64,000 nt of DNA, taken from NCBI GenBank assembly GCA_031281585.1, contig JAITFE010000158.1, forward strand, positions 3,477-67,476, written 5' to 3'. The notes beneath the pieces were generated by a model, which did not search any database, was not told where the DNA came from, and worked only from the letters and a program-made list of their open reading frames with translations. Positions 169-64,000 of this stretch are shown piece by piece. Position numbers and translations under genes: made by a program. This stretch comes from Bifidobacteriaceae bacterium. Lineage in GTDB: Bacteria; Actinomycetota; Actinomycetes; Actinomycetales; WQXJ01. The stretch's first letter is position 1, and each line of letters begins with the position of its first letter.

Positions 169-171
169 ACG

Positions 172-2010: not shown

Positions 2011-2026
2011 GCACGAAGGGCAAGAA

Positions 2027-3779: not shown

Positions 3780-4330
3780 TCTCCGACGTCAGCTTCGCCT
3801 ACGATTCGGCGCCCGTCCTTAGGGGCGTCAGCGCGCGAGGCTCGGTGTTGGCCGTCACCGGCGCCAACGGCTCAGGCAAGACGACGCTGTTGAAGCTCAT
3901 TCTGGGCCTGCTGGCACCCTCTGCGGGCACCATCGCCGCCCCCGCCCGCAAGGCGGCCGTTTTTCAGGACGACCGGCTCTTGGAGCACCTCACGGCCATC
4001 GGCAACGTCCGCGTGACGCACCCGGGCAAGATCGGCGACAAACAGATCGCCGCCGAGTTCCAGGCGTTGGGCCTCCCCGAGGAAGCCTGGCGCCGCCGGG
4101 TGCGCGACCTGTCTGGCGGCCAACGCCGCCGCGTCTGCCTGGCGCGGGCACTGGCGCCGGACGCCGAACTGGTCTGCCTGGACGAGCCCTTCAAAGGAAT
4201 CGACGCCGAGAGCCTGCCCGCCGTGCGGGAGCATGTGCGCGAGCGGCTCCGCGACAAGGACGTCGCCATCGCCACCCACGACGAGGAGGACCTGGCCCTT
4301 TTTCAGGGCGCGGGCATTTGCCTGGGCTGA
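3776..4330 (+). CDS. ABC transporter ATP-binding protein (compact, about 184 aa)
   Basis: Walker A GANGSGKTT, signature LSGGQRRR, Walker B LVCLDEPF, H-loop ATHD. GTG 3776 overlaps the permease stop. The upstream part of track ORF 3362..4330 is the alternate frame of the permease. Confidence 0.85.
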   Translation: MISDVSFAYDSAPVLRGVSARGSVLAVTGANGSGKTTLLKLILGLLAPSAGTIAAPARKAAVFQDDRLLEHLTAIGNVRVTHPGKIGDKQIAAEFQALGLPEEAWRRRVRDLSGGQRRRVCLARALAPDAELVCLDEPFKGIDAESLPAVREHVRERLRDKDVAIATHDEEDLALFQGAGICLG

Positions 4331-43100: not shown

Positions 43101-46100
43101 GGACCCGTCGGCGAGTTGACGGCATCGGCCTCGGAGCCGTCCCAGGCTGTCACCTCGGCGGCCGTGGTCTGCCCCGTGGACGGGTTGGCGGCCGTCCGGC
43201 TGAACGCCCGGTTGGGCGGCGACTTGTCACGCTTGCGCGGCGAGGTCGTGGTGACCTTCAAGAACGCGCAGGGCGCCACGGTGGGATCGAAGGTGTTCGG
43301 GCCTTGGATTCACTCTTTCGCCGGGCTGGACTGGTCTGACACGTTGCCGGTTCCGGCCGGGGCGGCGTCCGTCTCGGTGGCCGCGCGGGCCACAGCCGCC
43401 TCCAGCGGCGCGATCTCCGGCACGTGGCGGGTGGCGGCGGTGGAGGCGCTGCCCAGCACCCACGTGGCGCCCGCCGGCGACCAGCCCGTCGCGATCACCG
43501 CAGGCGAATCCGCGACTTGGGCCTTCAACGTGACCCCCGCGTCCGCCCGCGGCCCGCTCGAGGTCGTTTTGACGGACGTGGACGGCGTGGAGGCGTACCG
43601 CGCGTCGGCGGTCCGCGCCGCCGACGGGTCCACCGCGGTGACCGTGCCCGCGGTGGCGCAGGGCTACTACGACGTGACGGCGACGTTCACGGCATCGGAC
43701 GATGCCGTCGCCCGGGGTTCCTGGACCAGCTCCCTGACCGCCGTGCCCGCCGGGGAGGTCCCGCAAGAGGCGCGGTTCGGGTTGGACGCGGGTCTGTCGT
43801 GGCCAAACGCCGCCGCGTACCGGGACGGGCGCTCCGCGTCAATGATCGCGAAAGCCGGGGTCGGCAGCGTCCGCGACCGGCTGAGGTGGGCCGACGTCTA
43901 CGACTGCCAAACGTGGAACACGCAGGGGCGGTATCTGGGCAACAGCGCGGTGCGGACCTACGGCGCGGTCGCGGAAGACTTCGTGGACAACGGGTTGGCC
44001 GTGGTGCACGTGTTCCAGGACGCGCCGGCGTGCGCCCGCCCCGGCGGCGCCGCCGAGCCCAACATCCCCTTGGACTACGCCCAGGTGTACAAGTTCGGGC
44101 AGGAATACGCCCGCAATTTGGGGCCGCTGGTGGAAGCGGTCGAATACTGGAACGAGCAGGCCGGCTCATTCTTCAACGGGCGGCCGTTCGAATACGCCTC
44201 CGGCCTGAAGGCGTTCACGGCCGGGGTCAAGTCGGTCCGCCCGGAAATCCGCGTCCTGATCGGCTCATCCGGCCCGGTGGGCCGGTATGAGACTGAAACC
44301 TACGCCAACGCCGTGACCAACGACTTCGACACGCGCAACCACCATTTCTACGGCTACGCCTCCGGCGGGAACACCGGCCTGACTGAGTTCGCCGCGCAAA
44401 ACAAGACGCAAGAGGCGACAACCGCGGCCGGCCTGGGTGCCCCGGCCGCCGGGCTGACCGACAAGTCCTTGTGGCTGACGGAGACCGGGGTCGACATCCA
44501 CGCCGACGCGGCCGGATCCGAACGCCCATCGGAAAAGCTCCAGGCCGAACGCTTGGCGCAGACCTACGCGGAAGGCTTCGCGGCCGGTTACGAGAGGGTC
44601 TTCGTCTTCTACTGGCAGGAACTGCTGGAGGGGAACTCGTACCTGTGGGGAATCACGCGGGACGATTTGTCGCCGCGCCCCGCCTACTACTCGCTGTCCC
44701 TGGTGACGCGTCATCTGGCGGGGATGTCGGCGGCGAAGATCGAAACCCACGGCTCCGGCAAGACGGTGTATTTCACGTGCGACAACCCGGAGGCGAAGGG
44801 CGCCACCTGCTCGCAGGGCGAAGTGCGGGCCGTGACCTGGGGCGGGGGTGTGACGCTGCCCGCCTCCGCGCAGGTGATGGACGTGTTTGGGCGTGTGGTT
44901 CCGGCCGCTCAGGCTTCCGCCGAGGGCGCGGGCACCTATCTGGTGGGGGGCTTGACCGCCGTCCCGGCGGGGGCCGCGCCTGTGACGGTCCCGCAGTCGC
45001 CCGTCGCGACCGGACCGGCGCCCTTGCGGCTCCAGGTGCAGCGGATAGTCGGCGACGGGAGGATCACCACGCTGACCGGCGCGACTGCGCATTACGACTT
45101 CCTGGTCTCCACCGGTTCCGTCATCGACATGGTCCTGGCCGCGCGCGACGCGGCCGATTCGGACGTTTCCGCGTCCACCACGGTGACGTGCGGCTATCAC
45201 ACCGGCTTCACCATCCTGTCAGACGTGAATCCCCAGCCCGTGGACGGCGAGTTCGTCTGCCGCTACCGGGTCGACCTGCCATGGGCCACCGGCGGCTGGT
45301 CCAGGATCTGGGCCCAGGCGGCACGCGGGGAAGGGGCCGCCCAAACAACCGACCAGGCGGCGGCCTGGATTGTGGCCGGACCGCCGGAGGGCGCCTTCTG
45401 GGCGCCTGGTCGAACGTTGGCCCCGGGCGACGCCATCACCTCGCCGAACGGCCGAGTCAAGGTGGTTTGGGAGGCGGACGGCCGCCTGGTGGAGTACTAC
45501 GACGGCGCCGAGGTCCGGGCCACGCCCACCGCCGGCGCCGCCAAGGCGGTCTTCCAAGCCGACAACGACTTCGTGATCACGGACCAAGCCGGCGCCGTGT
45601 TGTGGCGCACCGGCAGCGTTGGCGACTGGACGGGTGTCTTCACCGTCAACGACCAGGGCCAGGTGGCGGTCGAGCGGTTCAACCGCACCCTGGAATGGGA
45701 GTGGCTGCCCGCGCTCGAGCCACCGGGCGAGTTGCCCGTCTCGGGCCCCGGCCTGTCGCGCCTGGAGGCGGCCGCCGGGTCCGCCACCCCCGCCGATGGC
45801 GTCACCACCCGGTCGGTCACGGCCCACGTGACAAACGGTTCCGGCGCCCCGCTGGCGGGCCGCGACGTGTCGTTCTCAATCCCCTTCGGGGTCCGCGCCG
45901 GATCCTCACCGGGACCGGCCGTCATCCTGGTGGCGACGGACGCGACAGGCGCGGCGGTGTTGGCCCTGACGTCCGATGCCGCCGGGTCCTATCCGGTCAC
46001 CGCCCGCGTCAACGGGGTGGCGATCACGGAGGGCTCCCCGGCCGTGGTCGCGTTCGCCCAGCCCCTGGACCCGTCCCCAAGCCCGACGGCGAGCCCGACG

Positions 46101-53128: not shown

Positions 53129-53150
53129 CTTGACCTTGACGTTACGTCAC
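53129..53150 (+). promoter_or_regulatory. MerR-type operator/promoter motif, copy 1 (CTTGACCTTGACGTTACGTCAC)
   Basis: TTGACC (-35-like, 53130-53135), a 19-bp spacer containing the palindrome TGACG-TTA-CGTCA, then TGTAAT (53155-53160). It lies 78 nt upstream of the small ORF at 53228. Confidence 0.6.
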
Positions 53151-53227
53151 AGCCTGTAATGAATGATGCAAGAGCGAAGGGCCCCGAGGTTCTTCGCGCA
53201 GACATCGCCCGAAAGGAAATATAAGGC

Positions 53228-53314
53228 ATGAACACCGCCGACTCTGATATCCAGCTTGACCTGACCGTGACTGAATTTGACGCCACCGAAGCCCCTTCAT
53301 TCGTCTGGTGGTGA
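53228..53314 (+). CDS. Candidate RiPP precursor peptide (28 aa): MNTADSDIQLDLTVTEFDATEAPSFVWW
   Basis: Not in the ORF track (<60 aa). AAAGGA lies 10 nt upstream of ATG 53228. Sits downstream of MerR-type promoter copy 1 and 48 nt upstream of the RRE-M50 gene. Acidic leader-like N-terminus (6 D/E, no K/R) and hydrophobic C-terminus. Confidence 0.5.
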   Translation: MNTADSDIQLDLTVTEFDATEAPSFVWW

Positions 53315-53362
53315 TCACCGCCAACCGATTCGGCGCTTCGATCCGAGGAGACGAGTGAGACG

Positions 53363-54685
53363 GTGAGTGCCTTGCTAACACGCTTCCGGCCCGCGCCGGG
53401 AACAACGTCGCGGCTCCAGGCCGATAGCGGTCTTCTCCTCGTCTCCCGTTCGGATTGTCGAGTATTCCAACTCGGCCGCGACGCGGGTCGCCTCTTCGAC
53501 GCTCTAGCCGCCGAAGGCGACCCGCGCGACGCCGATGACCTTTGCGACATGTTGGGCTGTGGTCGCAATGCCGAATCCGTGGAGCGGGCGCTCGCGTCAA
53601 TGGAGGCATTGGGACTGGTGTCCCGCGTGGGACGGGCGGGTCCGGTCTCGGGTCCGCCACGCCGCTCCCGGATCGCGTTTCGTCCGCCGCTCGCGGTTGC
53701 CGTCAGACTGATCGACCCCTCGCGGCTACTGGCGTTTCTCGCCCCGCTGGCGGTGCTGCTGCGCGGTCGCCTTGGCCTGTGCCTTGGACTGGCAGGACTC
53801 ATGGCGCAAGTCGCGTTCCTATGCTGGGCCCCGCCCGCTTGTGTCAAGGATCCGTTTCACGCTGTGCTCGCAGCTTCCCTGGTACTTGGCGTGGCGGGAT
53901 TGCACGAGCTCGCTCACGGGTTAGTCATGACCCGCGCAGGCGTGAGTTCCCGAGGGATCGGATTCATGTTCATGGGTCCGGTGCCTCTTCTGTACTGCGA
54001 CGTTTCCGGCAGCGTTGCGTTGTGCCGTCGGGCCCAAGTCGATGTCGCCCTTGCCGGGGTGGTAATGCAGGCCCAGGTGGGCGCGCTCCTTCTGCCGATG
54101 GCGGCCGGCGCCAACTCACTTGGCGTGATTAGGGCGTTCATCGCGGTCAACCTGATGATGATGGCTGGAAACGCGGTTCCATTTCTTCCCTTGGACGGAT
54201 ACATCGCGCTTAGGGCAGGGCTCGGCAGACCCAACTTGCGGACGGCTGCCATCGCGGAGTTTGGTCGGTGGGTGGTTCGCCTCGTGGGACGGCAAGGCCC
54301 GGGCGGGGAACGCGGAAGCGAACCAAGATGGCTTGCCGCGTTCGGCGGAGCGGCGGCGCTTGCGCCGGTTTGCCTGGTGGGCGTCGCGGTTTGGCGATCA
54401 AGCGAACTTGCCGGATGCGCCGGCGGGATCGGGGCGCTGGCGGTGGCCGTGGTGGTGTGGCTGGTAAGTCGAATCGCGCCGAATGTGGCTCGCTCGGCGC
54501 GATCACAGGGTTCCTGTACCCTGTTGCCAGGCAATCGATGCGTTCCGCGCCAGGGACGCACGTCCTACGGGGAAGGACTGGAGAGACCGGGTGGACCTGA
54601 CGATTGGCGAACTCGCGCGGATGGTGGGCCTGACGCCCAGGACGGTCCGTTACTACGAGAGCATTGGGCTGCTTCCAGAGCCTGA
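53363..54685 (+). CDS. PqqD/RRE-like domain fused to an M50-family (site-2 protease-like) membrane zinc metallopeptidase
   Basis: GTG 53363 with GAGGAG upstream. The N-terminal about 90 aa has a PqqD-like pattern (LLLVSRSDCRVFQLGRDAGRLFDALAAEG...AESVERALASMEALGLVS). Multi-TM core with HELAH (53903-53917) and NAVPFLPLDGY. The last 95 nt overlap the MerR gene, so the C-terminal end is uncertain. Confidence 0.7.
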   Translation: MSALLTRFRPAPGTTSRLQADSGLLLVSRSDCRVFQLGRDAGRLFDALAAEGDPRDADDLCDMLGCGRNAESVERALASMEALGLVSRVGRAGPVSGPPRRSRIAFRPPLAVAVRLIDPSRLLAFLAPLAVLLRGRLGLCLGLAGLMAQVAFLCWAPPACVKDPFHAVLAASLVLGVAGLHELAHGLVMTRAGVSSRGIGFMFMGPVPLLYCDVSGSVALCRRAQVDVALAGVVMQAQVGALLLPMAAGANSLGVIRAFIAVNLMMMAGNAVPFLPLDGYIALRAGLGRPNLRTAAIAEFGRWVVRLVGRQGPGGERGSEPRWLAAFGGAAALAPVCLVGVAVWRSSELAGCAGGIGALAVAVVVWLVSRIAPNVARSARSQGSCTLLPGNRCVPRQGRTSYGEGLERPGGPDDWRTRADGGPDAQDGPLLREHWAASRA

Positions 54686-55370
54686 TCGCACTTGGGGAAA
54701 CTATCGCCTGTACTGCGAAGAAGACGTCATCCGTCTTACTCGCGTTAAACGGCTCACCGCAATGGGGCTGAGCCTAGAACAGGTCGCCGACGTTATCGGC
54801 AGACCGGTTGACGAATCCTCAGAAGAGGTTCTGACGGAGCTGAATAGGCGGCTCCAATCTGAGATTCGAGTCGCGCGCGAGCGGCAGAAAGCCATTGACC
54901 GCATAAGGGGAACCGGTGCCACAATCGACGCGGAGCCGGAATTCGCCGCCAGGCTAGTAAAGCAAGAACAGGCGGAGTTGACTGAATTTGAGCGCGACTA
55001 CAGCCGGGTCCTGGTTGACGCCGTCACCGCGCTCGGCTCGGACTCTGACCGCGCCCGCCTCGAATGGCTCTTTGCCCACGGTGACGCGTTATCGACGCTG
55101 CCGGAGTTCCAGGCCCTCAATTCGCTCGACAAGGATCTGGCCGCTCTGCCGGATGATGCGACCGAGGAGGAGATCGAAAAGCTGGCCGATGCCTACATCA
55201 CGGCGCATGAGGCGGCTGATCAAGCGTTCCCGCCCGGTATCGCCCGAACCTGGTCGCCCCGCTTGGCTGATGTGTTAGACGCCCTTTTGGACAACCGGCT
55301 CAGCGATGCCCAGGTCGAGGTCCAACGCCGCGTCCGAACCGCTCGCCGCGACGGCGGCGCGAGACACTGA
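54591..55370 (+). CDS. MerR-family transcriptional regulator (long C-terminal effector domain)
   Basis: GTG 54591 gives VDLTIGELARMVGLTPRTVRYYESIGLLPEP...YRLYCEEDVIRLTRVKRLTAMGLSLEQV (MerR HTH + coiled coil). About 150 aa of additional C-terminal sequence. Confidence 0.85.
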   Translation: MDLTIGELARMVGLTPRTVRYYESIGLLPEPDRTWGNYRLYCEEDVIRLTRVKRLTAMGLSLEQVADVIGRPVDESSEEVLTELNRRLQSEIRVARERQKAIDRIRGTGATIDAEPEFAARLVKQEQAELTEFERDYSRVLVDAVTALGSDSDRARLEWLFAHGDALSTLPEFQALNSLDKDLAALPDDATEEEIEKLADAYITAHEAADQAFPPGIARTWSPRLADVLDALLDNRLSDAQVEVQRRVRTARRDGGARH

Positions 55371-55401
55371 CCCCTAGTGATGTTTGGCTCGCGGACGGCC
55401 G

Positions 55402-55423
55402 CTTGACGTTGACGCGGGGTCAG
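55402..55423 (+). promoter_or_regulatory. MerR-type operator/promoter motif, copy 2 (CTTGACGTTGACGCGGGGTCAG)
   Basis: TTGACG (55403-55408), a 19-bp spacer with TGACG-CGG-GGTCA, then TTGGGT (55428-55433). GTG 55441 follows about 8 nt later, consistent with a leaderless mRNA. Confidence 0.55.
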
Positions 55424-55440
55424 AGTGTTGGGTCGGGTAT

Positions 55441-55857
55441 GTGACAAGCATCCAGAATCCGCCAGTGCCCGGCCATGCCGGCTCCCAGACCCCGATCCAG
55501 TTGGAATACACCACGCGAGAGGCGGCGCAATTGGTTGGGTTGACCGCCCGCGCGCTGCGCTACTACCACCAGGTGGGGCTCCTGCCCGAGGGCCGGCGCG
55601 GACCCGGTGGCCAGCGCATCTACACCCGCGAGCAGATCCTGATGTTGCTCCGGATAGTGCGTCTGAGCGAAATGGGCCTCTCCCTAGAGGAGGTGGCGGA
55701 TGTCTTGGGTGGCCCGCCGGGGACTCACCGCGCAGAGGTCATTCTTGTGAGCTTGGACCGCGCGCTGGCTGACCGGGTCGGCGTGATCCAGGCCCAGCGC
55801 CGTGTCATCCGTGAGCTGCTCACGACGGGATCGCCCGTGATCAAACGCGGTGGGTGA
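55441..55857 (+). CDS. MerR-family transcriptional regulator (short)
   Basis: YTTREAAQLVGLTARALRYYHQVGLLPEGRR...RIYTREQILMLLRIVRLSEMGLSLEEV. GTG 55441 is preferred over the track start 55384, which lies upstream of and across the promoter motif. Confidence 0.8.
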   Translation: MTSIQNPPVPGHAGSQTPIQLEYTTREAAQLVGLTARALRYYHQVGLLPEGRRGPGGQRIYTREQILMLLRIVRLSEMGLSLEEVADVLGGPPGTHRAEVILVSLDRALADRVGVIQAQRRVIRELLTTGSPVIKRGG

Positions 55858-55907
55858 CGCCGCAGGGCACCGACCAGCTCCACGTGTCCGTTTCGTGGCG
55901 TCCCCGG

Positions 55908-57797
55908 CTAGGGAAACGGGTGCGGCACCAAGTTGGGTACGAACGCCGATGCCGGGCGGCCGGTGTGCGCCGCCCACGCGTCCCGCAGTCGGGGCATCCG
56001 TAGGGCGCGCTGAACCGACCAGCCGAAGTCGATCGGGATTAGCCCAGGGACGATCGCCTTGGCCGCGTGGGCCCCGAGCCTTGTCAGTAGTGGAATCGTC
56101 TGGTCTACCACGATCGGCTCGAAGCCCGCCTGGCTGGTGATCTCGATGAGCCAGCCAAGACCCAGGCCGGGCTCGTCGGCTTCGGCCGCGCTTCGGCATG
56201 GTCCAACCTTGTCCACCGGAACCAACGGCTCCGCTGGCCCATCCAGCAAGAATGCGGCCAAGTGGCGGGCCGCGGGATTCTTGAACATGTCAGCGTGATC
56301 CTCCAACCGCCTGACCGCCTGGAAATCGCGAATCATGGCGTCGGTCTGCGTCAGCCTTCCCTGCGTCATGCGATGCGTCGAGGCCGAGTCGGAGGTGAAA
56401 CCCAGTCCGAAGTCGGAGCAGATCTCCGACAAGGCGCCCAGGATGGCGTCCTGCGGATCAGGCCGACTGGCGGCGCCGAAACAAAGGGCGCCGCTCTTTT
56501 CATTCTCGGCGACAGCCATCACAGTTGGAACCGGCAAACCAACCGTGCAATCGAAGAGGCGGACCTGCTGCCCATATAGCCGCATGCGTGCCAGCATCAT
56601 CTGCGCCAAATTGGATTCGACCCCGTTGGGGTCGATCTCGCGGAGGGGAATCCCGCCATACCAAGCGATAAGGAACGAGTCTCGTTCAATCACTTCGAGG
56701 AGGCCATAGAACGCGGCCTCTGCCAGAGTTGAACCAACGGCACAGCCACTCGAAGTTTCGAAGGCGAATAGCTCTGCGGCCGGCTCGGCCCCGTAATACA
56801 CCAGCGACTCTGGAACTGCGACAACCTCTCTCGCGCGCAGCGAATAGCCGGGCACCCAATTCATCTCCGCCGGAACCGGGAACGGCCAGTCCTCGGGCGC
56901 CAAGCCGAATTCGCTCGGGCCTACGGCGCGCACCGGTAGATCGGCAGCGGATCCCCGCCAACGCAGCGCACGCTGGGCCGGCCTGTACCCGGCGATCCGC
57001 TCCAGTCCTTCCAGCACGCCAATGGCCTCGGAATCGGCGAATGTGCCGGCGTGGCCGCCCCAATGCAGCGACCAATTCTCCCTGTGGGCGCCCAACCGCT
57101 TCTCTCCAGCGACCTTGGCGGGAATCTCTGACTCAAGGTCCCAAAACGATCGGGATCCAGCCAAAGCCGTTGCTGGATGAAGGAAATCGCTTGGTTGCAG
57201 CGCGTCGAAATGGGAGCGGGCCGGGGCGCGGGGCACAAGCAGCGCGTCGCCCGGCCGGAGTTGTCCCTCATAATCTGCGGGCGGAGCCTCAGGTGCGAAC
57301 TCATGGTGCCGGGACGGGTGACACGGCTCACAGGCCAATAGGCGTACACCCGTGATGCCCAACCGCAACCGGTCAATTCCAACCACCGCTGGGGCCGCCG
57401 CGGGATCGGAAGTGGCAAGGGTTTCGAGTAGGCGGGCCATCAACTCGGCCTCGAACGGGTTGCTCCCCGGCAGATCCACGCCGACCTCCGCAGTGCTCAC
57501 TGCGTGGCGGAGCGACGGATCGTAGCCCACGGCCTCCATCACACAGGGAACGCAGCTGGTTGCCCTGGGATCCGAGACAAAGACGTGGGTCGGCGTGCGG
57601 TAGATGACCGGACCATCCCACTGGATCGCCAGATCGGGGTCCGAGTGCCCCGAGGGGGCCGGACCCAAAGCGTCCACCACCAGGCATGGGCACGGGTCTG
57701 GGGGGAGCTTCGCATCGGGCACTAACGGGTCCTGTCGCTGGTCGGGGTGGGTCATGAGGGAACTGGCGCGGGCGTTTGGGACCTTATCACACACCAT
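55908..57797 (-). CDS. YcaO-domain cyclodehydratase (SagD family) with Cys-rich N-terminal extension
   Basis: FETSSGCAVGSTLAEAAFYGLLEVIERDSFLIAWY (YcaO ATP/Mg core-like). Pro-rich C-terminus ...VPNLVPHPFP, typical of azoline-forming YcaOs. The N-terminal about 230 aa has CPC, CVPC and CEPC. The alternative start ATG 57755 (MTHPDQ) is equally possible. Confidence 0.88.
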   Translation of the reverse strand: MVCDKVPNARASSLMTHPDQRQDPLVPDAKLPPDPCPCLVVDALGPAPSGHSDPDLAIQWDGPVIYRTPTHVFVSDPRATSCVPCVMEAVGYDPSLRHAVSTAEVGVDLPGSNPFEAELMARLLETLATSDPAAAPAVVGIDRLRLGITGVRLLACEPCHPSRHHEFAPEAPPADYEGQLRPGDALLVPRAPARSHFDALQPSDFLHPATALAGSRSFWDLESEIPAKVAGEKRLGAHRENWSLHWGGHAGTFADSEAIGVLEGLERIAGYRPAQRALRWRGSAADLPVRAVGPSEFGLAPEDWPFPVPAEMNWVPGYSLRAREVVAVPESLVYYGAEPAAELFAFETSSGCAVGSTLAEAAFYGLLEVIERDSFLIAWYGGIPLREIDPNGVESNLAQMMLARMRLYGQQVRLFDCTVGLPVPTVMAVAENEKSGALCFGAASRPDPQDAILGALSEICSDFGLGFTSDSASTHRMTQGRLTQTDAMIRDFQAVRRLEDHADMFKNPAARHLAAFLLDGPAEPLVPVDKVGPCRSAAEADEPGLGLGWLIEITSQAGFEPIVVDQTIPLLTRLGAHAAKAIVPGLIPIDFGWSVQRALRMPRLRDAWAAHTGRPASAFVPNLVPHPFP

Positions 57798-57821
57798 CTG
57801 GAAACTGGTGGGCGCGAGCCG

Positions 57822-57843
57822 CTTGACCTTGACGCGACGTCAC
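57822..57843 (+). promoter_or_regulatory. MerR-type operator/promoter motif, copy 3 (CTTGACCTTGACGCGACGTCAC)
   Basis: TTGACC (57823-57828), a 19-bp spacer with TGACG-CGA-CGTCA, then TTGACT (57848-57853). ATG 57861 lies 8 nt downstream (leaderless-type). The motif sits in the divergent YcaO / E1-like intergenic region. Confidence 0.6.
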
Positions 57844-57860
57844 GGTTTTGACTTCAAGCC

Positions 57861-59954
57861 ATGACCCGCTCACAGCAAGGAATCGGCCCATCGACAGCCC
57901 TTTCGCTTGAAGCGCCGCAGCCCTCCGGAGCCGCCCCAGGCGCGAAGCTAAGGCTCCGAGCCAACACCATGTTCAGCTCGTCCGCTGCCGGTATCCGCTT
58001 CTCCAACACCGAGACGGTCCTTGAGATCGCCGGTGCGTCCGCCTACCGTGCCTTCAAGGCCATCGCGCCGATACTGGACGGCTCGTATTCGCGGCGCGAA
58101 CTCGCCCAGACGCTGGATCAGCGGACTTGGCAGAAGGTGGAGGCGTTTGTCGAGCCGTTGCTGGCACGGGGCTTCCTTCGCGAAATCGACCCGTGTCCGG
58201 ACGTCAGCCTCTCGCCCGATGACGAGGTGAGGTTTGCCGAGCAGCTCGCCTTCATCGCCCACTTCAAAGATGATCCGAAGCGTCGCTTTGTTCGCTTCCG
58301 CGACGCATCCATCGCCGTGGTCGGCGGCTGCCCGCTTGCTGCCTGGCTTGCCCGCGTGCTTGTCCAAAACGGCGCCCGGCGCCTGACCTATTACAGCCCC
58401 GGCGCCGCGCGCCCGGACGATCTGCCGGACTCAGTTCAGGTCCGATCGCTGGATCGCCTGGACCATGACGCGCCGGAGTGCCAGGTCCTGGTGCTGCCGC
58501 CCACACCTTGGGCGGCGCGGCGGCTGGCGCAGGCCGGAGACGGTTTTGGCGCGCCGGTGACTTTGCCGATCACAGCCTTGGGCGACAACCTCGTGATCGG
58601 CCCGATGTGGACCGCCGGTGACGATTCGGCCGCCACCTGGGCAGACATGATGGCGGCGCTGAGCGAGCACGATTCGGATGGGAGTGTCGCCCACTTCTGG
58701 GTCACCGCACTTGCGGGGGTAGAGACCGGCGCGACCGCGACAGGGCTACCTGCGGTCCAGCGGCTTGGAGCCTCCCTTGCCGCCATCGAGGTGTACCGGA
58801 ACCTGACCGAGATTTCTGAGCCTGAGACGGCCGCTTCGATCCTGGTCCTCGATTGCCTTCACGGTGAGGCCAAGCGTCACCGCGTGATCCCGCACCGGTA
58901 CATCCACCCGGCCGCCACCGGATCTATGAACAGGTGCCCGGCGTCGAGCCTGCCCGCACCTTCCGACGAAGTCTCCGGCAGGGTCGGACCAAGCTGGTCC
59001 AAGGCCTGCGCACAAGCGGTCGATCCTCTGACTCTTCCAATCATGCGATTCGACGATGGCGAGATCGAGCAATTGCCGCTCAAGGTGTCCGTGGCGGAGG
59101 TGGTGATGGGTGGCGGGAGACCACCGGTCACCATCGGCTCGGCCGATCTCTGGGATGTGGCCGGCGCTCGTGCCCGGGCTACCCGCCAGGCGCTGGCGCT
59201 GCGGCTCGAAACGTGGGCGCCCCCCGCCGCCTCGTGGGCCGAGGCGCGGACGGTCGATGGTCTCCTTCACGGTCGCACAACGCGCGACCAGGCCCACACA
59301 TCCAATCCCGTCCTGGCACGGGACCTCCTCACGGGCGAGAAAATCGCCGTGCCTTCCGGCGCCGTCGCCACCATGTCGAGCGCTAACACGCTGGGCGTCT
59401 TCGGCCGCTCAGCGCTCGGCTGCGGCATCGGACTCGACTACGACGAGGCGTTGGAGGGCGCCGTTTCCTCGGCCGCCGCGCGTCTAGGACTGATCGCGGC
59501 GGCCCGCGCGGGAGCGGCACCCCGCGCGACGGCATCGGACACCTCGCCTAAGAGCGTCTTCTTGCGCGACGCGGCCCAAAGGCTCGGCGTGGTTGTCGAA
59601 TCATTCGATGCCGGGTGCCACCTCGGCCGCCACGTCGTCATCTCGCGGTGCCGGCGCTCCGGGGTGACCGCCTGGGAGGCAGCCGCAGGCAGCGACTTGG
59701 CCGAAGCCTTGTGCGCCTCGCTCGTTGGGCTGATCGGCGCTGTGCAACGGGCCGCCAACGGAAAGGCCCCCGAGACCTGGTCGATGACGGCCGAGCCAGA
59801 GTTCGACCCGAACGGTTTGGCGACCGGAACGGCCCCTCTGGAAAAGGCCAATAGCCCCCGCGTGATTGTCTGCGACGTCACCAACCCGGAACTCGCTGCC
59901 CTCGGATTCGTGGCCGTCAAGGCCCTGACGGCGGACGGGGGCGAACCGCGATGA
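57861..59954 (+). CDS. E1/ThiF-like cyclodehydratase partner (ocin-ThiF-like) with N-terminal RRE-like wHTH and YcaO-like degenerate C-terminal half
   Basis: N-terminus IRFSNTETVLEIAGASAYRAFKAIAPILDGSYSRRELAQTL...VEPLLARGFLREI (RRE pattern). Rossmann-like IAVVGGCPLAAWLARVLVQNGARRLTYY. The C-terminal half has GCGIGLDYDEALEGAVSSAAARL but no E-x-x-ER motif. Assignment is by resemblance only. Confidence 0.65.
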   Translation: MTRSQQGIGPSTALSLEAPQPSGAAPGAKLRLRANTMFSSSAAGIRFSNTETVLEIAGASAYRAFKAIAPILDGSYSRRELAQTLDQRTWQKVEAFVEPLLARGFLREIDPCPDVSLSPDDEVRFAEQLAFIAHFKDDPKRRFVRFRDASIAVVGGCPLAAWLARVLVQNGARRLTYYSPGAARPDDLPDSVQVRSLDRLDHDAPECQVLVLPPTPWAARRLAQAGDGFGAPVTLPITALGDNLVIGPMWTAGDDSAATWADMMAALSEHDSDGSVAHFWVTALAGVETGATATGLPAVQRLGASLAAIEVYRNLTEISEPETAASILVLDCLHGEAKRHRVIPHRYIHPAATGSMNRCPASSLPAPSDEVSGRVGPSWSKACAQAVDPLTLPIMRFDDGEIEQLPLKVSVAEVVMGGGRPPVTIGSADLWDVAGARARATRQALALRLETWAPPAASWAEARTVDGLLHGRTTRDQAHTSNPVLARDLLTGEKIAVPSGAVATMSSANTLGVFGRSALGCGIGLDYDEALEGAVSSAAARLGLIAAARAGAAPRATASDTSPKSVFLRDAAQRLGVVVESFDAGCHLGRHVVISRCRRSGVTAWEAAAGSDLAEALCASLVGLIGAVQRAANGKAPETWSMTAEPEFDPNGLATGTAPLEKANSPRVIVCDVTNPELAALGFVAVKALTADGGEPR

Positions 59955-61585
59955 CCGCCACAACAATCCAAGTGGACAGGCCGACACCTGCCCCGGAGTC
60001 GTCTTGTGCCACGCTCACGCCGCTGGGCGAGGAATGGGCGGAACTGGCCCCAGGCCAGGCGGCGCGGCGGTACGCCGAGATGATCTTTCGCCGGGCCGAA
60101 CAGGGAATGCCCCTCCGCAAGTGGCAGATCGACTGGGCGGACGCCCCCTGGCCGCAGAAGTTCTACCCCGGAACCCAGCTTGTCGCCTTGCCTCGGGCCA
60201 CGGCACCAGGTGGCCTGGCCTCGGGTGGACCGGTCGCCATGGACCGCGCGCTTGGAGACCTCCTCTTCTACTCCTACGGAGTGATGGGGAGGCGCAGCCG
60301 AGTCAATTGCAACGAGTCCACATCGATGCTGGTGAACGCCGAGGAGGCCAGGTGGGCGCGAGGTGCGTCATCGGGTGGGGGCAGATACTGCGCGGGCGTG
60401 TACCTCGTGGTGGGACGCGACTTCGGTCTGGAGAGCGGGATCTACCACTATTCACCGATCCACCACGCTCTCGAGCGCCTCTCGTCGGGGGACTGGACAG
60501 GTCCCGTGGCGCATGCTCAGCGGTATCCCGCCGCGCAACAGTGCTACGTCATCCTCACCGTCAAGTACTGGCAGTCCGCCTTCAAGTACAACGACTTCGC
60601 CTGTCAGGCGACCAGCATGGACCTGGGAACTCTCACGGGGACATGGCGCTACGTGCTCGGGGAGGCCGCAGATCTCGTCCAGCCCGATCTGTGGGTGGAT
60701 GAGGCGTCGCTGGCGGGGATCCTCGACCTTGACTCCGGCGCGGAGGCCGTTTGTGCGGTCATGGGGATCGGGCCGGCCACCACCGCTGCGGTCAGTCCCC
60801 GACCGGGCGGGCGCCTGCCCCACGCCGACGAGCGTTCCCAGACGGTCCACTCGTTTGTCACCCAGCGGGCGCTCCAACGTGACGCGCTGGCAGAACGAGG
60901 AGTGCCGTCCGGCCTCGACCCGGTGTGGCCTGTACCCGAGTCTTTGACCGCCTCGCTGACGCCCGACCCAGCAGTCAAGGGGCGAATCAGCGACGTGTGG
61001 CGCCGCGAGACGTCTTTTGGGCGCTTTGACGGCGCTCCGGTCCGCGTCGAAGTGCTAATCGAATGCCTGGCTGAGGCAGACGCCGCCCAATCGGTGGTGG
61101 ACCGAACCTTCTCCGGCGCCACGGGGAGGGAAGTGGGTCTATATGTCATAGCCGAGGCCGTGGATGGCCTACCGAGAGGCTGCTACCGCTTCGATGCCGG
61201 CACGCGGGCGTTGCGCCGGGCGCACACCCGTGACGCCATGGCGATCTTGCTCCGGCGCTACTTCCTCAACAACTACGACCTCGAGCGAGCGGCGGCCCTC
61301 GTGGTCATGACTGCCAATCCGATCGGCCTTGGAGAGGCTTACGGCGTTCGCGGCTACCGCGCCATCAACACGGCCGCAGGCGCGGTTTGTCAGCATCTGC
61401 ACCTCGCATGTGCGCGGCGAGGAGTGGGCGCCGGAACGGCCCTCGGCTTCGACGCGGCCAGCGAGTTCGACGCGCTGGGGCTGTCAGGCCGGGACGCCAT
61501 TCCGGTGTTGACCATGTTCATTGGGCATGACCGGCTGGCCTCCGGGGCGCTTGACCTGTCCCTCGAATGCGGCGGGGAACGGTGA
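59951..61585 (+). CDS. SagB-type (nitroreductase-fold, FMN) azoline dehydrogenase
   Basis: ASSGGGRYCAGVYLVVG...GIYHYSPIHHALERL and a second lobe LYVIAEAVDGLPRGCYRFD...NTAAGAVCQHLHLACARRGVG. ATGA overlap with the preceding gene. Confidence 0.85.
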   Translation: MTATTIQVDRPTPAPESSCATLTPLGEEWAELAPGQAARRYAEMIFRRAEQGMPLRKWQIDWADAPWPQKFYPGTQLVALPRATAPGGLASGGPVAMDRALGDLLFYSYGVMGRRSRVNCNESTSMLVNAEEARWARGASSGGGRYCAGVYLVVGRDFGLESGIYHYSPIHHALERLSSGDWTGPVAHAQRYPAAQQCYVILTVKYWQSAFKYNDFACQATSMDLGTLTGTWRYVLGEAADLVQPDLWVDEASLAGILDLDSGAEAVCAVMGIGPATTAAVSPRPGGRLPHADERSQTVHSFVTQRALQRDALAERGVPSGLDPVWPVPESLTASLTPDPAVKGRISDVWRRETSFGRFDGAPVRVEVLIECLAEADAAQSVVDRTFSGATGREVGLYVIAEAVDGLPRGCYRFDAGTRALRRAHTRDAMAILLRRYFLNNYDLERAAALVVMTANPIGLGEAYGVRGYRAINTAAGAVCQHLHLACARRGVGAGTALGFDAASEFDALGLSGRDAIPVLTMFIGHDRLASGALDLSLECGGER

Positions 61586-61589
61586 CACC

Positions 61590-64000
61590 ATGCGCGTCAT
61601 AGCCGACGAGAGGGTTCAGTCCCGGACAGCGGGTTTGCCGGCGAGTGTGCTGCGCGGTCTGCGTTCAGCGGATTTCGAGGCGTGGGTAGCGGACGTTGAC
61701 GCGGCGGAGGAAGCTCTCAGCTCAGCTCTTGAGCGCGCCACGGACCAGCTCTTCGGGATCATCGGCAGACTCGAGGCCGGTTCCGACCGCAAGGCGTTGG
61801 TGGAAGCGCGCCGGCACTTGCACAACCGGCGCTTCGCCCAGGCCAAGGTCCGCGTCGATGCCGTGTCACCTGGGATTGCCGAAGAGGTTGCCGCCTTGTC
61901 CGCACCGGTCTTCGCGGCGGCCGACGAATTTGAGGCCGTGCGGGCGCGCGGCGAGCTGGTGGTGGGGGAATGGCTGCGCCGGGAGCGCTTGAACCTTGGC
62001 GAACTGCTGGACGAGGAAGACTTCGCGCGAGGACTGGGCGTGGCGGCACCGAGCGCCACCACCGGCCTCCTCTCATACCGGGCCGCTGCACGCCGCGGGG
62101 GAACGCTGTCAAAGAATCAGCGCAAGGCTGAGCGGACGCTTCTTCAATACGCGTGGCGGGCGGCCGCCAAGACCTCACCGTTCTCAAGCCTCACGCGCGT
62201 TGGCATAGCGCGGTGCTCCGGCGCTGCAAACGTGCCCGCATCTGGCGGGAGAGACTTTCCAGACCGGATTGATGTGTCTCGCGCCTCGGTTTACCCGATA
62301 GCGCTGGCCTTGGACTCGCTTTGGCACAACGAGAAAGCCGTCCTGGGAATGCGGGTGATGCCGGGCCAGGTGATAGGGGAGGAACCGGACGGCGCCGTGA
62401 TTGTCCACCGCTCGGAGTACGACTTCTCCGACGCCACCGGAGAATCCGACCAGGCGGCCGTTCTGGAGTCTCTGGTCCGCATAGTTCCCGGAGATCTTTG
62501 CGACACGGTAGCGGCGGCCCTGGAGCAGGGCGCCGCCACCGTGGGCGCAGTCGTGGATCGCATGCATGGCCAGGGTGTGCCTCAGGCGACAGCGTTGCGT
62601 GCGGTTCAAGAGCTGATCCGGCTCGGCTTCTTGGTTCTGCCGGACCTCCGCTTCCATCCGCACATTGGCGCCGAGGCGGTCCTCGAGAGCCTGCCCAGGG
62701 AGATTGAGAAGCTCGGGGACCAAGGCTTCCGCGACGCGGTCACTGGGTATGTGGAGGCCGCCGAGTCTTTGTCGAAGATCAGCGGACTCGCCGAGCGATC
62801 CCATGCCGTGGATGCGATCCGCGGCGCGGTCAAGCGGGTTTACGAGGTCTCCGGCTGCTCAGACGCGCCGGTTCCGCAGTCGGTTGTTTACGAGGACTCG
62901 GGCCTGGGTCAGGCGCCCGAACTGCCAAGCCCGCCTCTGGAGAATCCGGACTTGGGGAAGCTGTTCGCGTTGTCGGAGGTGCTGGACGAGAGTCAAGTGC
63001 CGAGGGCCATGCTGAGGGGATTCTTCTTAGGGATGTTTGGGGCGGACGGTCGATGCGAGAACGTTCCCGCGTTCCTCGACGCATTCAAGACGCAGTTGTA
63101 CAGCTCGCACATGGCTCGTGACGCCGCCAACTTGGACCGGGACCGCATTGAAGCCGATCCGTGGCTGAGATGGGGTGAGGCTTGGCGCTGGGAGAAGGCC
63201 CAGGGCGTACTTAGGGAGTTGGTTGCGGACGCCGTTCCCGTGGGCGGCGTCATCGACATTCGCGACGCTTTGGCCACGAGTGGCCCGGCTCTGCGGCTGT
63301 TGCCAGATGTTGTCTTCCCCTTCCGGCACCTCAACATATTCGCTCAGGTCCTTGGTCGGAACGGACTGGTGGTCAACAACGTGTTCGGCGGTCCTGGGTT
63401 TGGGCTCTCCCGCTTCGCCCATCTATTTGGGGACGATGCCGTCAGTTGCGTTCGGTCGGTAGAGGACATGGCGCTCGCGGCCGGAGTGACGTTGCACGAG
63501 TTGCTGGGTGGAGCCGCCGTAACGAATCTCAACCTCCATGGTCCGCTTCTCAGGTCGGAACTGCGCATGCCCGGAGATCCGTCAGGCTCGCGGGCCGAGC
63601 GTCAGACCAGCGTCTTCGATCTAGATCTCATCTACATCTCGGATCAGGGCCGGCTGGCCTTGGTGCACCGGCGCACCGGCGAAGAGGTCCTGCCCACTTA
63701 CATCGGTTACCTGGTGCCGTTCGCGACTCCGACATCTCATCAGCTGATGGGGCTCCTGGCGCCCCCGGTGATGTTCGGCTCCGGCGTCTGGGGTGGACCG
63801 GAAGGAAGCGACGAGGCCGGAGCCGTTGAGGTGAAAAGGCGCCCGCGGGTCGCGATAGGCGATCACCTCGTCCTCGAGCGTGCCACTTGGGAGGTTCCAG
63901 CCGAGCTAATGCCGTCGGCCGATCCGACGTCCCCAAACGGCCTGGTCGAGTGGTGCCGATGGTGGCGTGCGCTGGGCCTGCCAGAGACGTCCTTCATCAG
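61590..64000 (+). CDS. Lanthipeptide/thiopeptide-type dehydratase, LanB N-terminal (glutamylation) domain; 3' end outside window
   Basis: Not in the ORF track (no stop in window). Hand translation from ATG 61590 (4 nt after the SagB stop) stays open for 803 codons. Hallmarks are RKAERTLLQYAWRAAAKTSPFSSLTRVG and a C-proximal RRPRVAIGDHLVLERATWEV. Confidence 0.85.
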   Translation, partial: MRVIADERVQSRTAGLPASVLRGLRSADFEAWVADVDAAEEALSSALERATDQLFGIIGRLEAGSDRKALVEARRHLHNRRFAQAKVRVDAVSPGIAEEVAALSAPVFAAADEFEAVRARGELVVGEWLRRERLNLGELLDEEDFARGLGVAAPSATTGLLSYRAAARRGGTLSKNQRKAERTLLQYAWRAAAKTSPFSSLTRVGIARCSGAANVPASGGRDFPDRIDVSRASVYPIALALDSLWHNEKAVLGMRVMPGQVIGEEPDGAVIVHRSEYDFSDATGESDQAAVLESLVRIVPGDLCDTVAAALEQGAATVGAVVDRMHGQGVPQATALRAVQELIRLGFLVLPDLRFHPHIGAEAVLESLPREIEKLGDQGFRDAVTGYVEAAESLSKISGLAERSHAVDAIRGAVKRVYEVSGCSDAPVPQSVVYEDSGLGQAPELPSPPLENPDLGKLFALSEVLDESQVPRAMLRGFFLGMFGADGRCENVPAFLDAFKTQLYSSHMARDAANLDRDRIEADPWLRWGEAWRWEKAQGVLRELVADAVPVGGVIDIRDALATSGPALRLLPDVVFPFRHLNIFAQVLGRNGLVVNNVFGGPGFGLSRFAHLFGDDAVSCVRSVEDMALAAGVTLHELLGGAAVTNLNLHGPLLRSELRMPGDPSGSRAERQTSVFDLDLIYISDQGRLALVHRRTGEEVLPTYIGYLVPFATPTSHQLMGLLAPPVMFGSGVWGGPEGSDEAGAVEVKRRPRVAIGDHLVLERATWEVPAELMPSADPTSPNGLVEWCRWWRALGLPETSFI

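What the first reader, a model, noticed from the sequence alone, without database searches (positions are those of the whole stretch)
53129..57853. A 22-bp motif CTTGAC-S-TTGACG-N3-SGTCA occurs three times with identical promoter geometry, defining a MerR regulon for the cluster
Copies are at 53129-53150, 55402-55423 and 57822-57843. Each has a TTGAC(C/G) hexamer and a 19-bp spacer containing the palindrome TGACG-N3-CGTCA (one arm mismatch in copy 2). Each also has a T-N4-T hexamer (TGTAAT, TTGGGT, TTGACT). A 19-bp spacer with the operator inside it is the established hallmark of MerR-activated promoters, and two MerR genes lie in the cluster. The motifs precede the precursor/protease/MerR1 unit, the MerR2 gene and the E1-like/SagB/LanB operon; the third is shared with the divergent YcaO gene. 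Copies 2 and 3 sit about 8 nt from the start codons, implying leaderless mRNAs. The first copy gives a plausible left boundary of the cluster at about 53.13 kb.
Basis: partly seen in the sequence, partly recalled or inferred. Interest (0 to 1): 0.7.

Follow-up and report, generated by a model that had tools for sequence, protein, structure and literature searches.

The report
TipA-type MerR promoters driving a RiPP cluster
Three copies of a widespread, well-known MerR-type "switchable" promoter (the kind that precedes TipA/Mta antibiotic-sensor genes) drive the peptide precursor, a regulator gene and the modifying enzymes of a rare peptide-natural-product cluster from a termite-gut actinobacterium.

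Summary
CTTGACSTTGACGNNNSGTCA occurs exactly three times in 64 kb (0.01 expected), always intergenic. Each copy has -35 TTGAC(C/G), a 19-bp spacer holding the dyad TGACG-N3-CGTCA, and a T-N4-T -10.

The MerR reading is strongly supported by comparison:
- A 49%-identical sister cluster (L002) keeps the motif at all three orthologous positions, as islands in otherwise diverged spacers.
- The exact 20-mer TTGACCTTGACGNNACGTCA is in at least 120 genomes (about 17 expected), always with -10 TAnnnT 19 bp after TTGACC.
- The gene right behind it is MerR-family in 87 of 110 loci and carries a TipAS domain in 76.
- Published TipAL, Mta and SkgA operators share the register.
- The start codon lies 5-8 nt after the -10 in 47 of 120 loci, which supports leaderless mRNAs.

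Corrections:
- The motif is the generic operator of a large MerR subfamily, so genome-wide hits outside the cluster are expected.
- MerR1 has no TipAS domain. It carries an uncharacterised helical sensor domain with no PDB fold match.
- The window's MerR2 has no sensor domain.
- ycaO probably has its own promoter.

Binding, inducer and transcription starts remain untested. This is a new variant of a known kind, of moderate interest.

The parts
53129..53160 (+). Promoter-operator P1: -35 TTGACC (53130-53135), 19-bp spacer with dyad TGACGTTACGTCA (53137-53149), -10 TGTAAT (53155-53160). The predicted transcript start is near 53167, giving a leader of about 61 nt with a conserved CCGAAAGG Shine-Dalgarno region.
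   Evidence: PWM score 40.2. Forms a conserved island against L002.
53228..53314 (+). Putative precursor peptide, 28 aa: MNTADSDIQLDLTVTEFDATEAPSFVWW.
   Evidence: L002 has a homologue, MNAESTKNLDCGLDLTIAEYDVTQAPTLLWW (tblastn E 5e-6).
53363..54685 (+). HExxH intramembrane metalloprotease-like gene, the probable leader peptidase. Its ORF overlaps the start of MerR1 by 95 nt.
   Evidence: NCBIfam daptide_HExxH NF041824, E 7e-53, 180 bits, below the 300-bit cut-off. 37% identical to the L002 neighbour.
54591..55370 (+). MerR1, 259 aa, GTG start: MerR HTH and coiled coil plus a helical C-terminal sensor domain of about 150 aa of unknown type. It has no promoter motif of its own and is the last gene of the P1 unit.
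   Evidence: Pfam MerR/MerR_1. AF2 model pLDDT 91.5. The sensor domain has no TipAS similarity and no PDB fold match. The domain family has 288 representative clusters.
55402..55433 (+). Promoter-operator P2, a degenerate variant: -35 TTGACG (55403-55408), dyad TGACGCGGGGTCA (55410-55422), -10 TTGGGT (55428-55433).
   Evidence: PWM 21.8, comparable to the experimentally used mta operator (19.9 against 20.0 over 26 positions). The variant is itself conserved in L002.
55441..55857 (+). MerR2, 138 aa, GTG start 7 nt after the P2 -10 (leaderless). It has the HTH and coiled coil only and no sensor domain.
   Evidence: Pfam. The L002 orthologue is 292 aa, starts at an ATG exactly 7 nt after its -10, and retains a divergent MerR1-type sensor domain.
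55908..57722 (-). YcaO cyclodehydratase (TOMM SagD type). The likely start is GTG 57722 (604 aa), not the upstream ATG of the 629-aa ORF.
   Evidence: Pfam YcaO 1e-65. TIGR03604 above cut-off. The L001 gene call is 604 aa, and the upstream ATG (57755) is not conserved in L001.
57781..57789 (-). Tentative separate promoter element for ycaO: extended -10 TGaTAAGGT on the minus strand (TGaTAACGT in L001, TGcTAGTTT in L002).
   Evidence: Read by eye and alignment A5. This is inference only.
57822..57853 (+). Promoter-operator P3: -35 TTGACC (57823-57828), dyad TGACGCGACGTCA (57830-57842), -10 TTGACT (57848-57853).
   Evidence: PWM 37.6. Conserved in L001 and L002.
57861..59954 (+). E1-like / TOMM leader-binding partner protein, 697 aa, ATG 7 nt after the P3 -10 (leaderless).
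   Evidence: Weak YcaO (Pfam) and ocin_ThiF_like matches. Only 3 homologues among 5.8 billion proteins.
59951..61585 (+). SagB-type peptide dehydrogenase, with overlapping stop/start with the preceding gene.
   Evidence: TIGR03605, 113 bits, above cut-off. Nitroreductase Pfam.
61590..64000 (+). LanB-type dehydratase (N-terminal part). It runs off the end of the window.
   Evidence: Translation. 57.5% identical to the L002 gene, which carries Lant_dehydr_N.

Best explanation
**What the sites are.** The three sites are MerR-type, distortion-activated sigma-70 (HrdB-like) promoters. Each has a near-consensus -35 (TTGACC) and a weak -10. The two are held out of phase by a 19-bp spacer that contains a dyad operator, (C)TTGACG-N3-CGTCA, centred 8 bp from the 3' end of the -35.

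**How they work (inferred).** A dimer of a cluster-encoded MerR protein sits on the dyad. The most likely binder is MerR1, whose homologues elsewhere are preceded or flanked by the same operator. When its C-terminal sensor domain is liganded, the dimer untwists and bends the spacer so that RNA polymerase can use the promoter.

**What each promoter drives.**
- P1 transcribes precursor, HExxH protease and MerR1, so MerR1 feeds back positively on itself.
- P2 transcribes a leaderless MerR2. In this genome MerR2 has no sensor domain, so it probably competes for the operator, forms heterodimers, or sets a basal or repressed state.
- P3 transcribes a leaderless E1-like/SagB/LanB operon.

**Shown here.** The sequence architecture, its conservation in orthologous clusters, its identity with the operator class of TipA/Mta/SkgA-type regulators, and the association of MerR1-type proteins with this operator in other genera.

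**Inferred.** Which protein binds, that binding activates, the transcription starts, and the inducer. My guess for the inducer is the mature or partly modified peptide, or another antibiotic-like molecule. MerR1-type regulators elsewhere head operons for MFS and ABC transporters, hydrolases and P450s.
For: - **Non-random occurrence.** Exact triple occurrence.
- **Phylogenetic footprints.** In the L002 cluster (49-62% protein identity), the motif is the conserved island in each of the three intergenic regions. The 7-nt distance from -10 to start codon is kept at P2 and P3. L001 keeps P3.
- **Wide distribution.** At least 120 genome loci carry the exact 20-mer. Unforced positions show A20, T23 and -10 T25-A26-N3-T30 at a fixed 19-bp spacing.
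- **Downstream genes.** The downstream gene is MerR-family in 87 of 110 loci and carries TipAS in 76. Most of the remaining loci have a MerR as second gene.
- **Experimentally used operators.** The tipA, mta and skgA operators have the same register and score 2.9, 19.9 and 15.6 on the PWM, against a random mean of -31 with sd 8.6 (PMC7762955).
- **Family rules.** The centre-to-(-35) distance of 8 bp and the 19-20-bp spacer match the MerR-family rules stated in PMC5045206.
- **MerR1-type proteins elsewhere.** Proteins with the MerR1-type sensor domain are directly preceded by the exact motif in six further loci from Streptosporangium, Actinomadura (two loci), Planobispora, a Streptomycetaceae bacterium and Nonomuraea. 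MerR1 homologues P0006 and P0007 are flanked by 2-3 PWM hits.
- **No alternative promoter.** No canonical promoter with 16-18-bp spacing exists in 52.6-58.1 kb.
Against: - No experimental datum exists for this locus. No RNA run is available, so transcription starts are unmapped, and no binding data exist.
- The operator is generic, so a MerR encoded elsewhere in the genome could be the real binder.
- L001, whose enzymes are 91% identical, keeps P3 but has no MerR gene on its 11-kb contig.
- The -10 hexamers lack the A at position 2 that 81% of the 120 sites have. However, the same hexamers (TGTAAT, TTGACT) recur in the MerR1-type subclass.
- MerR2 orthologues carry RA(L/V)R instead of RT(L/V)R in the recognition helix, so MerR2 may have a shifted specificity. 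This is read from the sequences and is untested.
Confidence: 0.75

Rival explanations
1. The sites are real MerR-type promoters, but they are served in trans by a housekeeping TipA-class (TipAS-bearing) regulator encoded elsewhere in the genome. The cluster would then be wired into the host's general antibiotic-stress response, and the cluster's own MerR proteins would play a secondary or different role.
For: - The 20-mer is the consensus autoregulatory operator of TipAS-bearing regulators in many phyla.
- L001 retains P3 without adjacent MerR genes.
- P1 and P3 score as high as typical TipA-class sites.
Against: - Two MerR genes are co-conserved with the three sites in the window and L002.
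- MerR1-type proteins, which lack TipAS, are themselves preceded by the exact operator in six other loci and are flanked by it in L123 and L125.
- The -10 hexamers match the MerR1-type subclass, not the TAGCGT/TACCGT type common before TipAS-bearing genes.
Confidence: 0.12
2. The cluster MerR proteins act mainly as repressors at these sites, with no activation. The 19-bp-spacer promoters would be intrinsically weak, and the cluster would be silenced until the repressor is titrated. The sensor-less MerR2 would be a constitutive repressor, as with sensor-less or co-repressor MerR relatives.
For: - Window MerR2 has no effector domain.
- Apo MerR proteins are known to repress, which is established family knowledge reviewed in PMC9909328 (listed, not read).
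- P2 is a conserved degenerate variant, which could tune occupancy.
Against: - With a 19-bp spacer and poor -10 hexamers, and no alternative canonical promoter, the genes would have no way of being expressed without activation.
- MerR1 retains a conserved sensor domain.
- The same architecture in TipAL, Mta and SkgA is an activation system (PMC7762955).
Confidence: 0.08
3. The repeat is only a duplicated strong promoter, or a recombination or duplication scar, with no dedicated regulator. Alternatively, it is bound by a non-MerR factor that recognises TGACG/CGTCA.
For: - TTGACC is a good -35.
- The TTGAC direct repeat could arise by duplication.
- TGACG-type half-sites are used by other factor families (general knowledge).
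Against: - The palindrome and the 19-bp spacing are conserved across at least 120 genomes, with a MerR gene downstream in about 80% of them.
- In L002 the flanks have diverged and only the motif is kept.
- Published binding data for the same operator class are with MerR proteins.
Confidence: 0.03

Closest known systems
TipAL and the tipA promoter of Streptomyces lividans; the TipA class (Mta of B. subtilis, SkgA of Caulobacter)
   Same: - The promoter-operator architecture and register are the same: -35 TTG(A/C)AC, then yTsACG-NN-ACGTsA inside a 19-bp spacer (PMC7762955 operators; PWM comparison).
- Both are autoregulatory.
- The N-terminal MerR HTH and coiled coil are shared.
- A stand-alone sensor-domain protein sits under the same kind of promoter next to a MerR1 homologue (L125 6699-7322). 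This recalls TipAS.
   Different: - MerR1 and MerR2 have no TipAS domain (Pfam; hhalign probability 0.4%; no fold match).
- TipA-class systems are minimal single-gene resistance modules. Here the operator is used three times to run a biosynthetic cluster, with two paralogous regulators, one of them without a sensor.
Classical MerR at Pmer (Tn21/Tn501) and metal-sensing relatives (CueR, ZntR, CadR)
   Same: Both have a 19-20-bp spacer, a dyad operator centred about 8 bp from the -35 (PMC5045206), and the presumed DNA-distortion mechanism. The N-terminal domain matches by sequence and fold.
   Different: - The half-site sequences differ.
- There is no metal-binding Cys loop; a 150-residue helical domain takes its place.
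- The regulator is not divergently transcribed but lies in the same direction as its targets.
TclU, the small MerR-family regulator of micrococcin/thiocillin thiopeptide clusters
   Same: It is a short (120 aa) MerR-family gene inside a YcaO/LanB-type RiPP cluster (PMC12916899), comparable to the 138-aa sensor-less MerR2.
   Different: TclU occurs in Firmicutes plasmid or chromosomal clusters, and I found no operator described for it. Homology to MerR2 was not tested here, and the papers found report no multi-promoter motif.
BmrR / bmr promoter (GyrI-like multidrug-sensing MerR)
   Same: It is a MerR activator with a large C-terminal ligand domain acting at a 19-bp-spacer promoter. Foldseek matches the N-terminal half.
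   Different: The effector fold (GyrI-like) and the operator sequence are different.

Membership tests
MerR-type distortion-activated promoter | -35 and -10 hexamers separated by an overlong 19-20-bp spacer | tested here: met
   All three copies have a 19-bp spacer. The same spacing is fixed in 120 independent sites. The rule is stated in PMC5045206.
MerR-type distortion-activated promoter | Dyad-symmetric operator inside the spacer, at a fixed distance from the -35 | tested here: met
   TGACG-N3-CGTCA occupies positions 8-20 counted from the -35 start. Its centre is 8 bp from the 3' end of the -35, as for MerR/HMRTR sites.
MerR-type distortion-activated promoter | Cognate MerR-family regulator encoded at the locus | tested here: met
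   MerR1 and MerR2 match Pfam PF00376 and PF13411 with E 1e-13 to 1e-18.
MerR-type distortion-activated promoter | Regulator binds the operator and activates on ligand binding; shortening the spacer relieves the dependence | not testable with these tools
   Needs EMSA or footprinting, reporter assays and spacer mutants. No RNA data exist.
TipA class of MerR regulators (TipAL/Mta/SkgA/AlbA) | C-terminal TipAS antibiotic-recognition domain (PF07739) | tested here: not met
   - MerR1, MerR2 and the L002 orthologues give no PF07739 hit, even at E 0.1.
- The profile-profile comparison of the MerR1 C-terminal domain with TipAS gives probability 0.4%.
- Foldseek of the C-terminal model against the PDB gives a best E of 0.63.
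TipA class of MerR regulators (TipAL/Mta/SkgA/AlbA) | Operator of the type TTGACC-yTsACG-NN-ACGTsA in the regulator's own promoter (autoregulation) | tested here: met
   The register is identical to the tipA, mta and skgA probes. P2 precedes MerR2, and P1 heads the operon that ends in MerR1.
TipA class of MerR regulators (TipAL/Mta/SkgA/AlbA) | Thiopeptide or multidrug binding, and a short sensor-only isoform from an internal start | not tested
   No internal-start analysis was done and ligand binding cannot be tested. A separate sensor-only gene exists next to a MerR1 homologue in L125.
Azole/dehydroamino-acid RiPP cluster (thiopeptide or LAP-like) | YcaO cyclodehydratase, E1-like partner, SagB dehydrogenase and LanB dehydratase | tested here: met
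   - YcaO and TIGR03604.
- SagB TIGR03605.
- ocin_ThiF_like, a weak match.
- The LanB-like gene is 57.5% identical to the L002 gene that carries Lant_dehydr_N, and L002 has a separate gene with Lant_dehydr_C.

Azole/dehydroamino-acid RiPP cluster (thiopeptide or LAP-like) | Precursor with a Cys/Ser/Thr-rich core | tested here: inconclusive
   The 28-aa peptide has no Cys and few Ser/Thr near its C-terminus (…ATEAPSFVWW). It is conserved in L002 (…VTQAPTLLWW). Either the product is unusual or another precursor lies outside the window.

The most novel reading that the evidence does not exclude
MerR1's uncharacterised helical domain may be a new ligand-sensing module that specifically recognises the cluster's own modified peptide (…APSFVWW-derived). 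P1 to P3 would then form a product-induced feed-forward switch, and the sensor-less MerR2 would act as a built-in antagonist or heterodimer partner that sets the threshold. That would be an autoinducing, quorum-like RiPP circuit in a termite-gut actinobacterium, built on the TipA operator but with a different sensor.
Probability: 0.2. Interest if true: 0.7.

Novelty: new variant of a known kind. Interest (0 to 1): 0.45.

Why it matters
- **A handle for expression.** The cluster family is very rare (three homologues of its E1-like protein among 5.8 billion proteins). Supplying MerR1 with its inducer, or simply shortening the three spacers to 17 bp, should switch on precursor, protease and enzymes together.
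- **One operator, several sensors.** The TipA/Mta-type operator is shared by MerR regulators with at least two unrelated sensor domains: TipAS and the MerR1-type helical domain (288 representative clusters). This bears on how MerR regulons evolve and on possible cross-talk between paralogues in one cell.
- **A practical annotation rule.** In actinobacteria, TTGACC-TTGACG-NN-ACGTCAA followed 19 bp after the -35 by TnnnnT, with a start codon 6-7 nt further on, marks a leaderless MerR-controlled gene.

Tried and rejected
- **Alternative register.** I tried the second TTGACG as the -35 with a 17-18-bp spacer. The resulting '-10' hexamers (ATGAAT, CTTCAA, GTCGGG) are inconsistent, and the start-codon geometry is lost. 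Rejected.
- **MerR1 as a TipA-class protein.** Pfam, hhalign and Foldseek were all negative. Rejected.
- **Further sites.** I looked for a fourth site, for example before MerR1, LanB or ycaO. There is no PWM hit of 12 or more outside the three sites and their reverse-strand echoes.
- **Canonical promoters and RNA families.** The sigma-70 scan of 52.6-58.1 kb found 0 promoters. The Rfam scan found 0 hits.
- **Transcription starts from public data.** The only runs that hold the sequence are termite-gut metagenome DNA, with no RNA.
- **Source contig by exact protein look-up.** It is not on record.
- **Full-text search for the literal motif.** It returned only unrelated primer hits.
- **Copy 3 shared with ycaO.** There is no support. 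The minus-strand PWM score is only 12.2, and that match is just the palindromic operator read on the other strand. A separate candidate -10 exists.
- **Search for more sister clusters.** Only L001 and L002 exist at useful similarity, so I did not spend the metagenome scan.

Full report
**1. The observation**

With up to two mismatches the pattern has these three hits and no others on either strand of the 64-kb window. Shuffles give 0.01. The bare palindrome with one mismatch allowed is much less special, with 7 hits against 2.8 expected. The information therefore lies in the composite of -35, dyad and spacing.

All three copies are intergenic and on the + strand. Each has TTGAC(C/G), exactly 19 bp, then TGTAAT, TTGGGT or TTGACT. 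At copies 2 and 3 the -10 ends 7 nt before GTG 55441 and ATG 57861.

**2. The genes**

- A 28-aa peptide, MNTADSDIQLDLTVTEFDATEAPSFVWW.
- An HExxH membrane protease related to the daptide leader protease (E 7e-53, below cut-off).
- MerR1, 259 aa, GTG 54591.
- MerR2, 138 aa.
- A divergent YcaO (SagD type).
- An E1-like partner protein of 697 aa.
- A SagB-type dehydrogenase.
- A LanB-type dehydratase that runs off the window.

The source is a termite-gut metagenome. Upstream lies a 4535-aa multi-domain GH5 cellulase.

**3. Orthologous clusters**

The E1-like protein has only three homologues among 5.8 billion proteins.

L002 is a JGI metagenome contig of 107 kb whose proteins are 49-62% identical to the window's. 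It has the same gene order: peptide, protease, MerR, MerR, ycaO on the opposite strand, E1-like, SagB, LanB-N, LanB-C and further genes. It has the motif at all three orthologous positions. Pairwise alignments of the three intergenic regions show the motif, and the Shine-Dalgarno region of the peptide, as conserved islands in diverged DNA. At P2 and P3 of L002 the -10 again ends exactly 7 nt before an ATG. At P3 this ATG lies 93 nt upstream of the database gene call, and the extra residues (…LRLRADTM…) match the window protein.

L001 is a Bifidobacteriaceae MAG contig whose enzymes are about 91% identical to the window's. It keeps P3 but has a 350-bp insertion between ycaO and P3. Its left arm is different and carries no peptide and no MerR genes.

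**4. What the motif is**

I scanned one genome per species for the exact TTGACCTTGACGNNACGTCA. I estimate about 17 or fewer by chance (0.25^18 x 1.2e12 positions). The hosts are mostly Actinomycetota and Bacillota, with some from other phyla.

In every locus the geometry is that of the window. Positions not forced by the search are conserved: A after the right arm (88%), T23 (76%), and a -10 T(78%)-A(81%)-N3-T(91%) exactly 19 bp after TTGACC.

The gene immediately downstream is MerR-family in 87 of 110 scorable loci. It carries the TipAS antibiotic-recognition domain in 76. Most exceptions are operons in which an MFS or ABC transporter, a hydrolase or a P450 comes first and a MerR second.

The operators used in binding assays for TipAL, Mta and SkgA are TTGCACCTCACGTCACGTGAGGAGGC, TTGACCCTAACGTTGCGTGATTGTTT and TTGACCCTCACGCCACGTCAGACCTG (PMC7762955). 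They align in the same register. On my PWM they score 2.9, 19.9 and 15.6, against a random mean of -31 and sd of 8.6. The window's P1, P2 and P3 score 33.2, 20.0 and 35.3.

The 19-20-bp spacer and the 8-bp distance from the -35 to the operator centre are the stated hallmarks of MerR-family promoters (PMC5045206). The motif is therefore the generic promoter-operator of a large, partly characterised MerR subfamily. It is not a cluster-specific element.

In 47 of 120 loci an ORF of at least 70 codons starts 5-8 nt after the -10.

**5. The regulators**

MerR1 and MerR2 have canonical MerR N-terminal domains. Neither has a TipAS domain.

MerR1 has a seven-helix C-terminal domain, confidently modelled (pLDDT 91.5 for the whole protein and 86 for the domain).
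- It shows no profile similarity to TipAS (hhalign probability 0.4%).
- It has no fold match in the PDB (best Foldseek E 0.63).
- The domain defines a modest family of 288 representative clusters among 1.84 billion proteins. It almost always occupies residues about 105-255 of proteins of about 255 aa.

Proteins with this domain are directly preceded by the exact motif, with leaderless starts, in six further loci: L017, L065, L074, L095, L096 and L103. The hosts are Actinomadura (two loci), Planobispora, Nonomuraea, a Streptomycetaceae bacterium and Streptosporangium. Their -10 hexamers are TGTAAT, TCTAAT, TTCAAT and TTGACT, two of which are the window's own P1 and P3 hexamers.

Closer MerR1 homologues from gut metagenomes (P0006 and P0007, 37-43% identical) sit beside 2-3 PWM hits in non-RiPP contexts. 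In one of these contexts (L125/L126), a gene consisting of the sensor domain alone follows one of the sites. This is a parallel to TipAS.

The window's MerR2 stops right after the coiled coil. Its L002 orthologue is 292 aa and retains a divergent copy of the MerR1-type domain.

P2, the promoter of MerR2, is a degenerate operator in both clusters, and the two variants resemble each other: 22 of 27 positions are identical.

**6. Mechanism and rivals**

The best-supported model has three regulator-dependent promoters forming a small local regulon.
- P1 drives peptide, protease and MerR1, giving positive feedback.
- P2 drives the leaderless MerR2.
- P3 drives the leaderless E1-like/SagB/LanB operon.

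No conventional promoter with 16-18-bp spacing exists in the region. That fits dependence on an activator.

The inducer is unknown. Relatives of MerR1 head efflux, hydrolase and P450 operons, so an antibiotic-like small molecule, or the cluster's own product, is the reasonable guess.

The main rival is trans-regulation by a TipAS-bearing MerR encoded elsewhere. The generic nature of the operator and the MerR-less L001 locus make it possible. The co-conservation of MerR genes and sites, and the subclass-specific -10 hexamers, make it less likely.

The claim that P3 is shared with ycaO is not supported. The likely ycaO start is GTG 57722. A minus-strand extended -10 candidate (TGaTAAGGT, 57789-57781), conserved in L001 and L002, lies about 40 bp from the operator. 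This is read by eye.

**7. Comparison and novelty**

The system works like TipAL, Mta and SkgA at their own promoters. It fails the defining membership feature of the TipA class, the TipAS domain. It is a member of the wider MerR family.

Cluster-situated small MerR genes are known in thiopeptide clusters (TclU, 120 aa; PMC12916899). I found no description of their operators, nor of a three-promoter MerR regulon in a RiPP cluster.

I rate it a new variant of a known kind. It combines a known operator and mechanism with a new sensor domain, a dual-regulator arrangement and a rare biosynthetic cluster. Nothing here is experimentally verified. The decisive tests are footprinting, 5'-end mapping and the 19-to-17-bp spacer deletion.

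Noticed in passing
L125 6699-7322 (-) and L126 253-876 (-): A gene of about 197 aa consists of the MerR1-type sensor domain alone, with no HTH (hmmsearch E 1e-16). It lies directly behind a high-scoring copy of the motif, next to a MerR1 homologue and an ABC transporter. This is a possible TipAS-like ligand-sequestering protein.
   Followed up: partly
window 55402-55433 and L002 7005-7036: The promoter of MerR2 is a degenerate operator (right arm GGTCA or CGGCA). The degenerate form is itself conserved between the two clusters, with 22 of 27 positions identical. MerR2 orthologues have RA(L/V)R instead of RT(L/V)R in the recognition helix. This may be a tuned low-affinity or paralogue-specific site.
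   Followed up: partly
window 54591-54685: The HExxH protease ORF (stop at 54685) overlaps the MerR1 start (GTG 54591) by 95 nt in another frame. In L002 the two genes are separated by about 120 nt. This could be a real overlap, a frameshift, or an over-extended ORF in GC-rich DNA.
   Followed up: no
L001 8376-8723: In the 91%-identical locus, a 350-bp insertion separates ycaO from P3, and the whole peptide/protease/MerR arm is replaced by ABC-transporter and other genes. The nature of the insertion is unknown.
   Followed up: no
window 53228-53314; L002 4811-4906: The conserved small peptide ends in …AP(S/T)xxWW, has no Cys and has very few Ser/Thr. That is odd for a YcaO/SagB/LanB cluster. 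The product may be an unusual small azole/dehydro peptide, or the true precursor may lie elsewhere. L002 carries a second YcaO gene and ABC transporters downstream.
   Followed up: partly
L115 (Ktedonobacteria bacterium brp13) 10-4012 and 5953-6857: A TipAS-bearing MerR with the exact motif lies about 2 kb from a YcaO plus ThiF/YcaO-like (TOMM-type) gene pair. This is a second, unrelated case of this promoter class next to azole-RiPP genes, and it may be coincidence.
   Followed up: partly
window 34131-47738 (+): A giant 4535-aa ORF carries a GH5 cellulase domain and bacterial Ig-like domains (Big_1, Big_6). This fits the termite-gut origin.
   Followed up: partly
L123 10804 and 11088; L125 7326 (-), 7404, 10804: MerR1 homologues in gut metagenomes have 2-3 motif copies around them but none directly upstream of their own gene, just as MerR1 in the window has none. 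Multi-promoter local regulons seem typical of this subfamily.
   Followed up: partly
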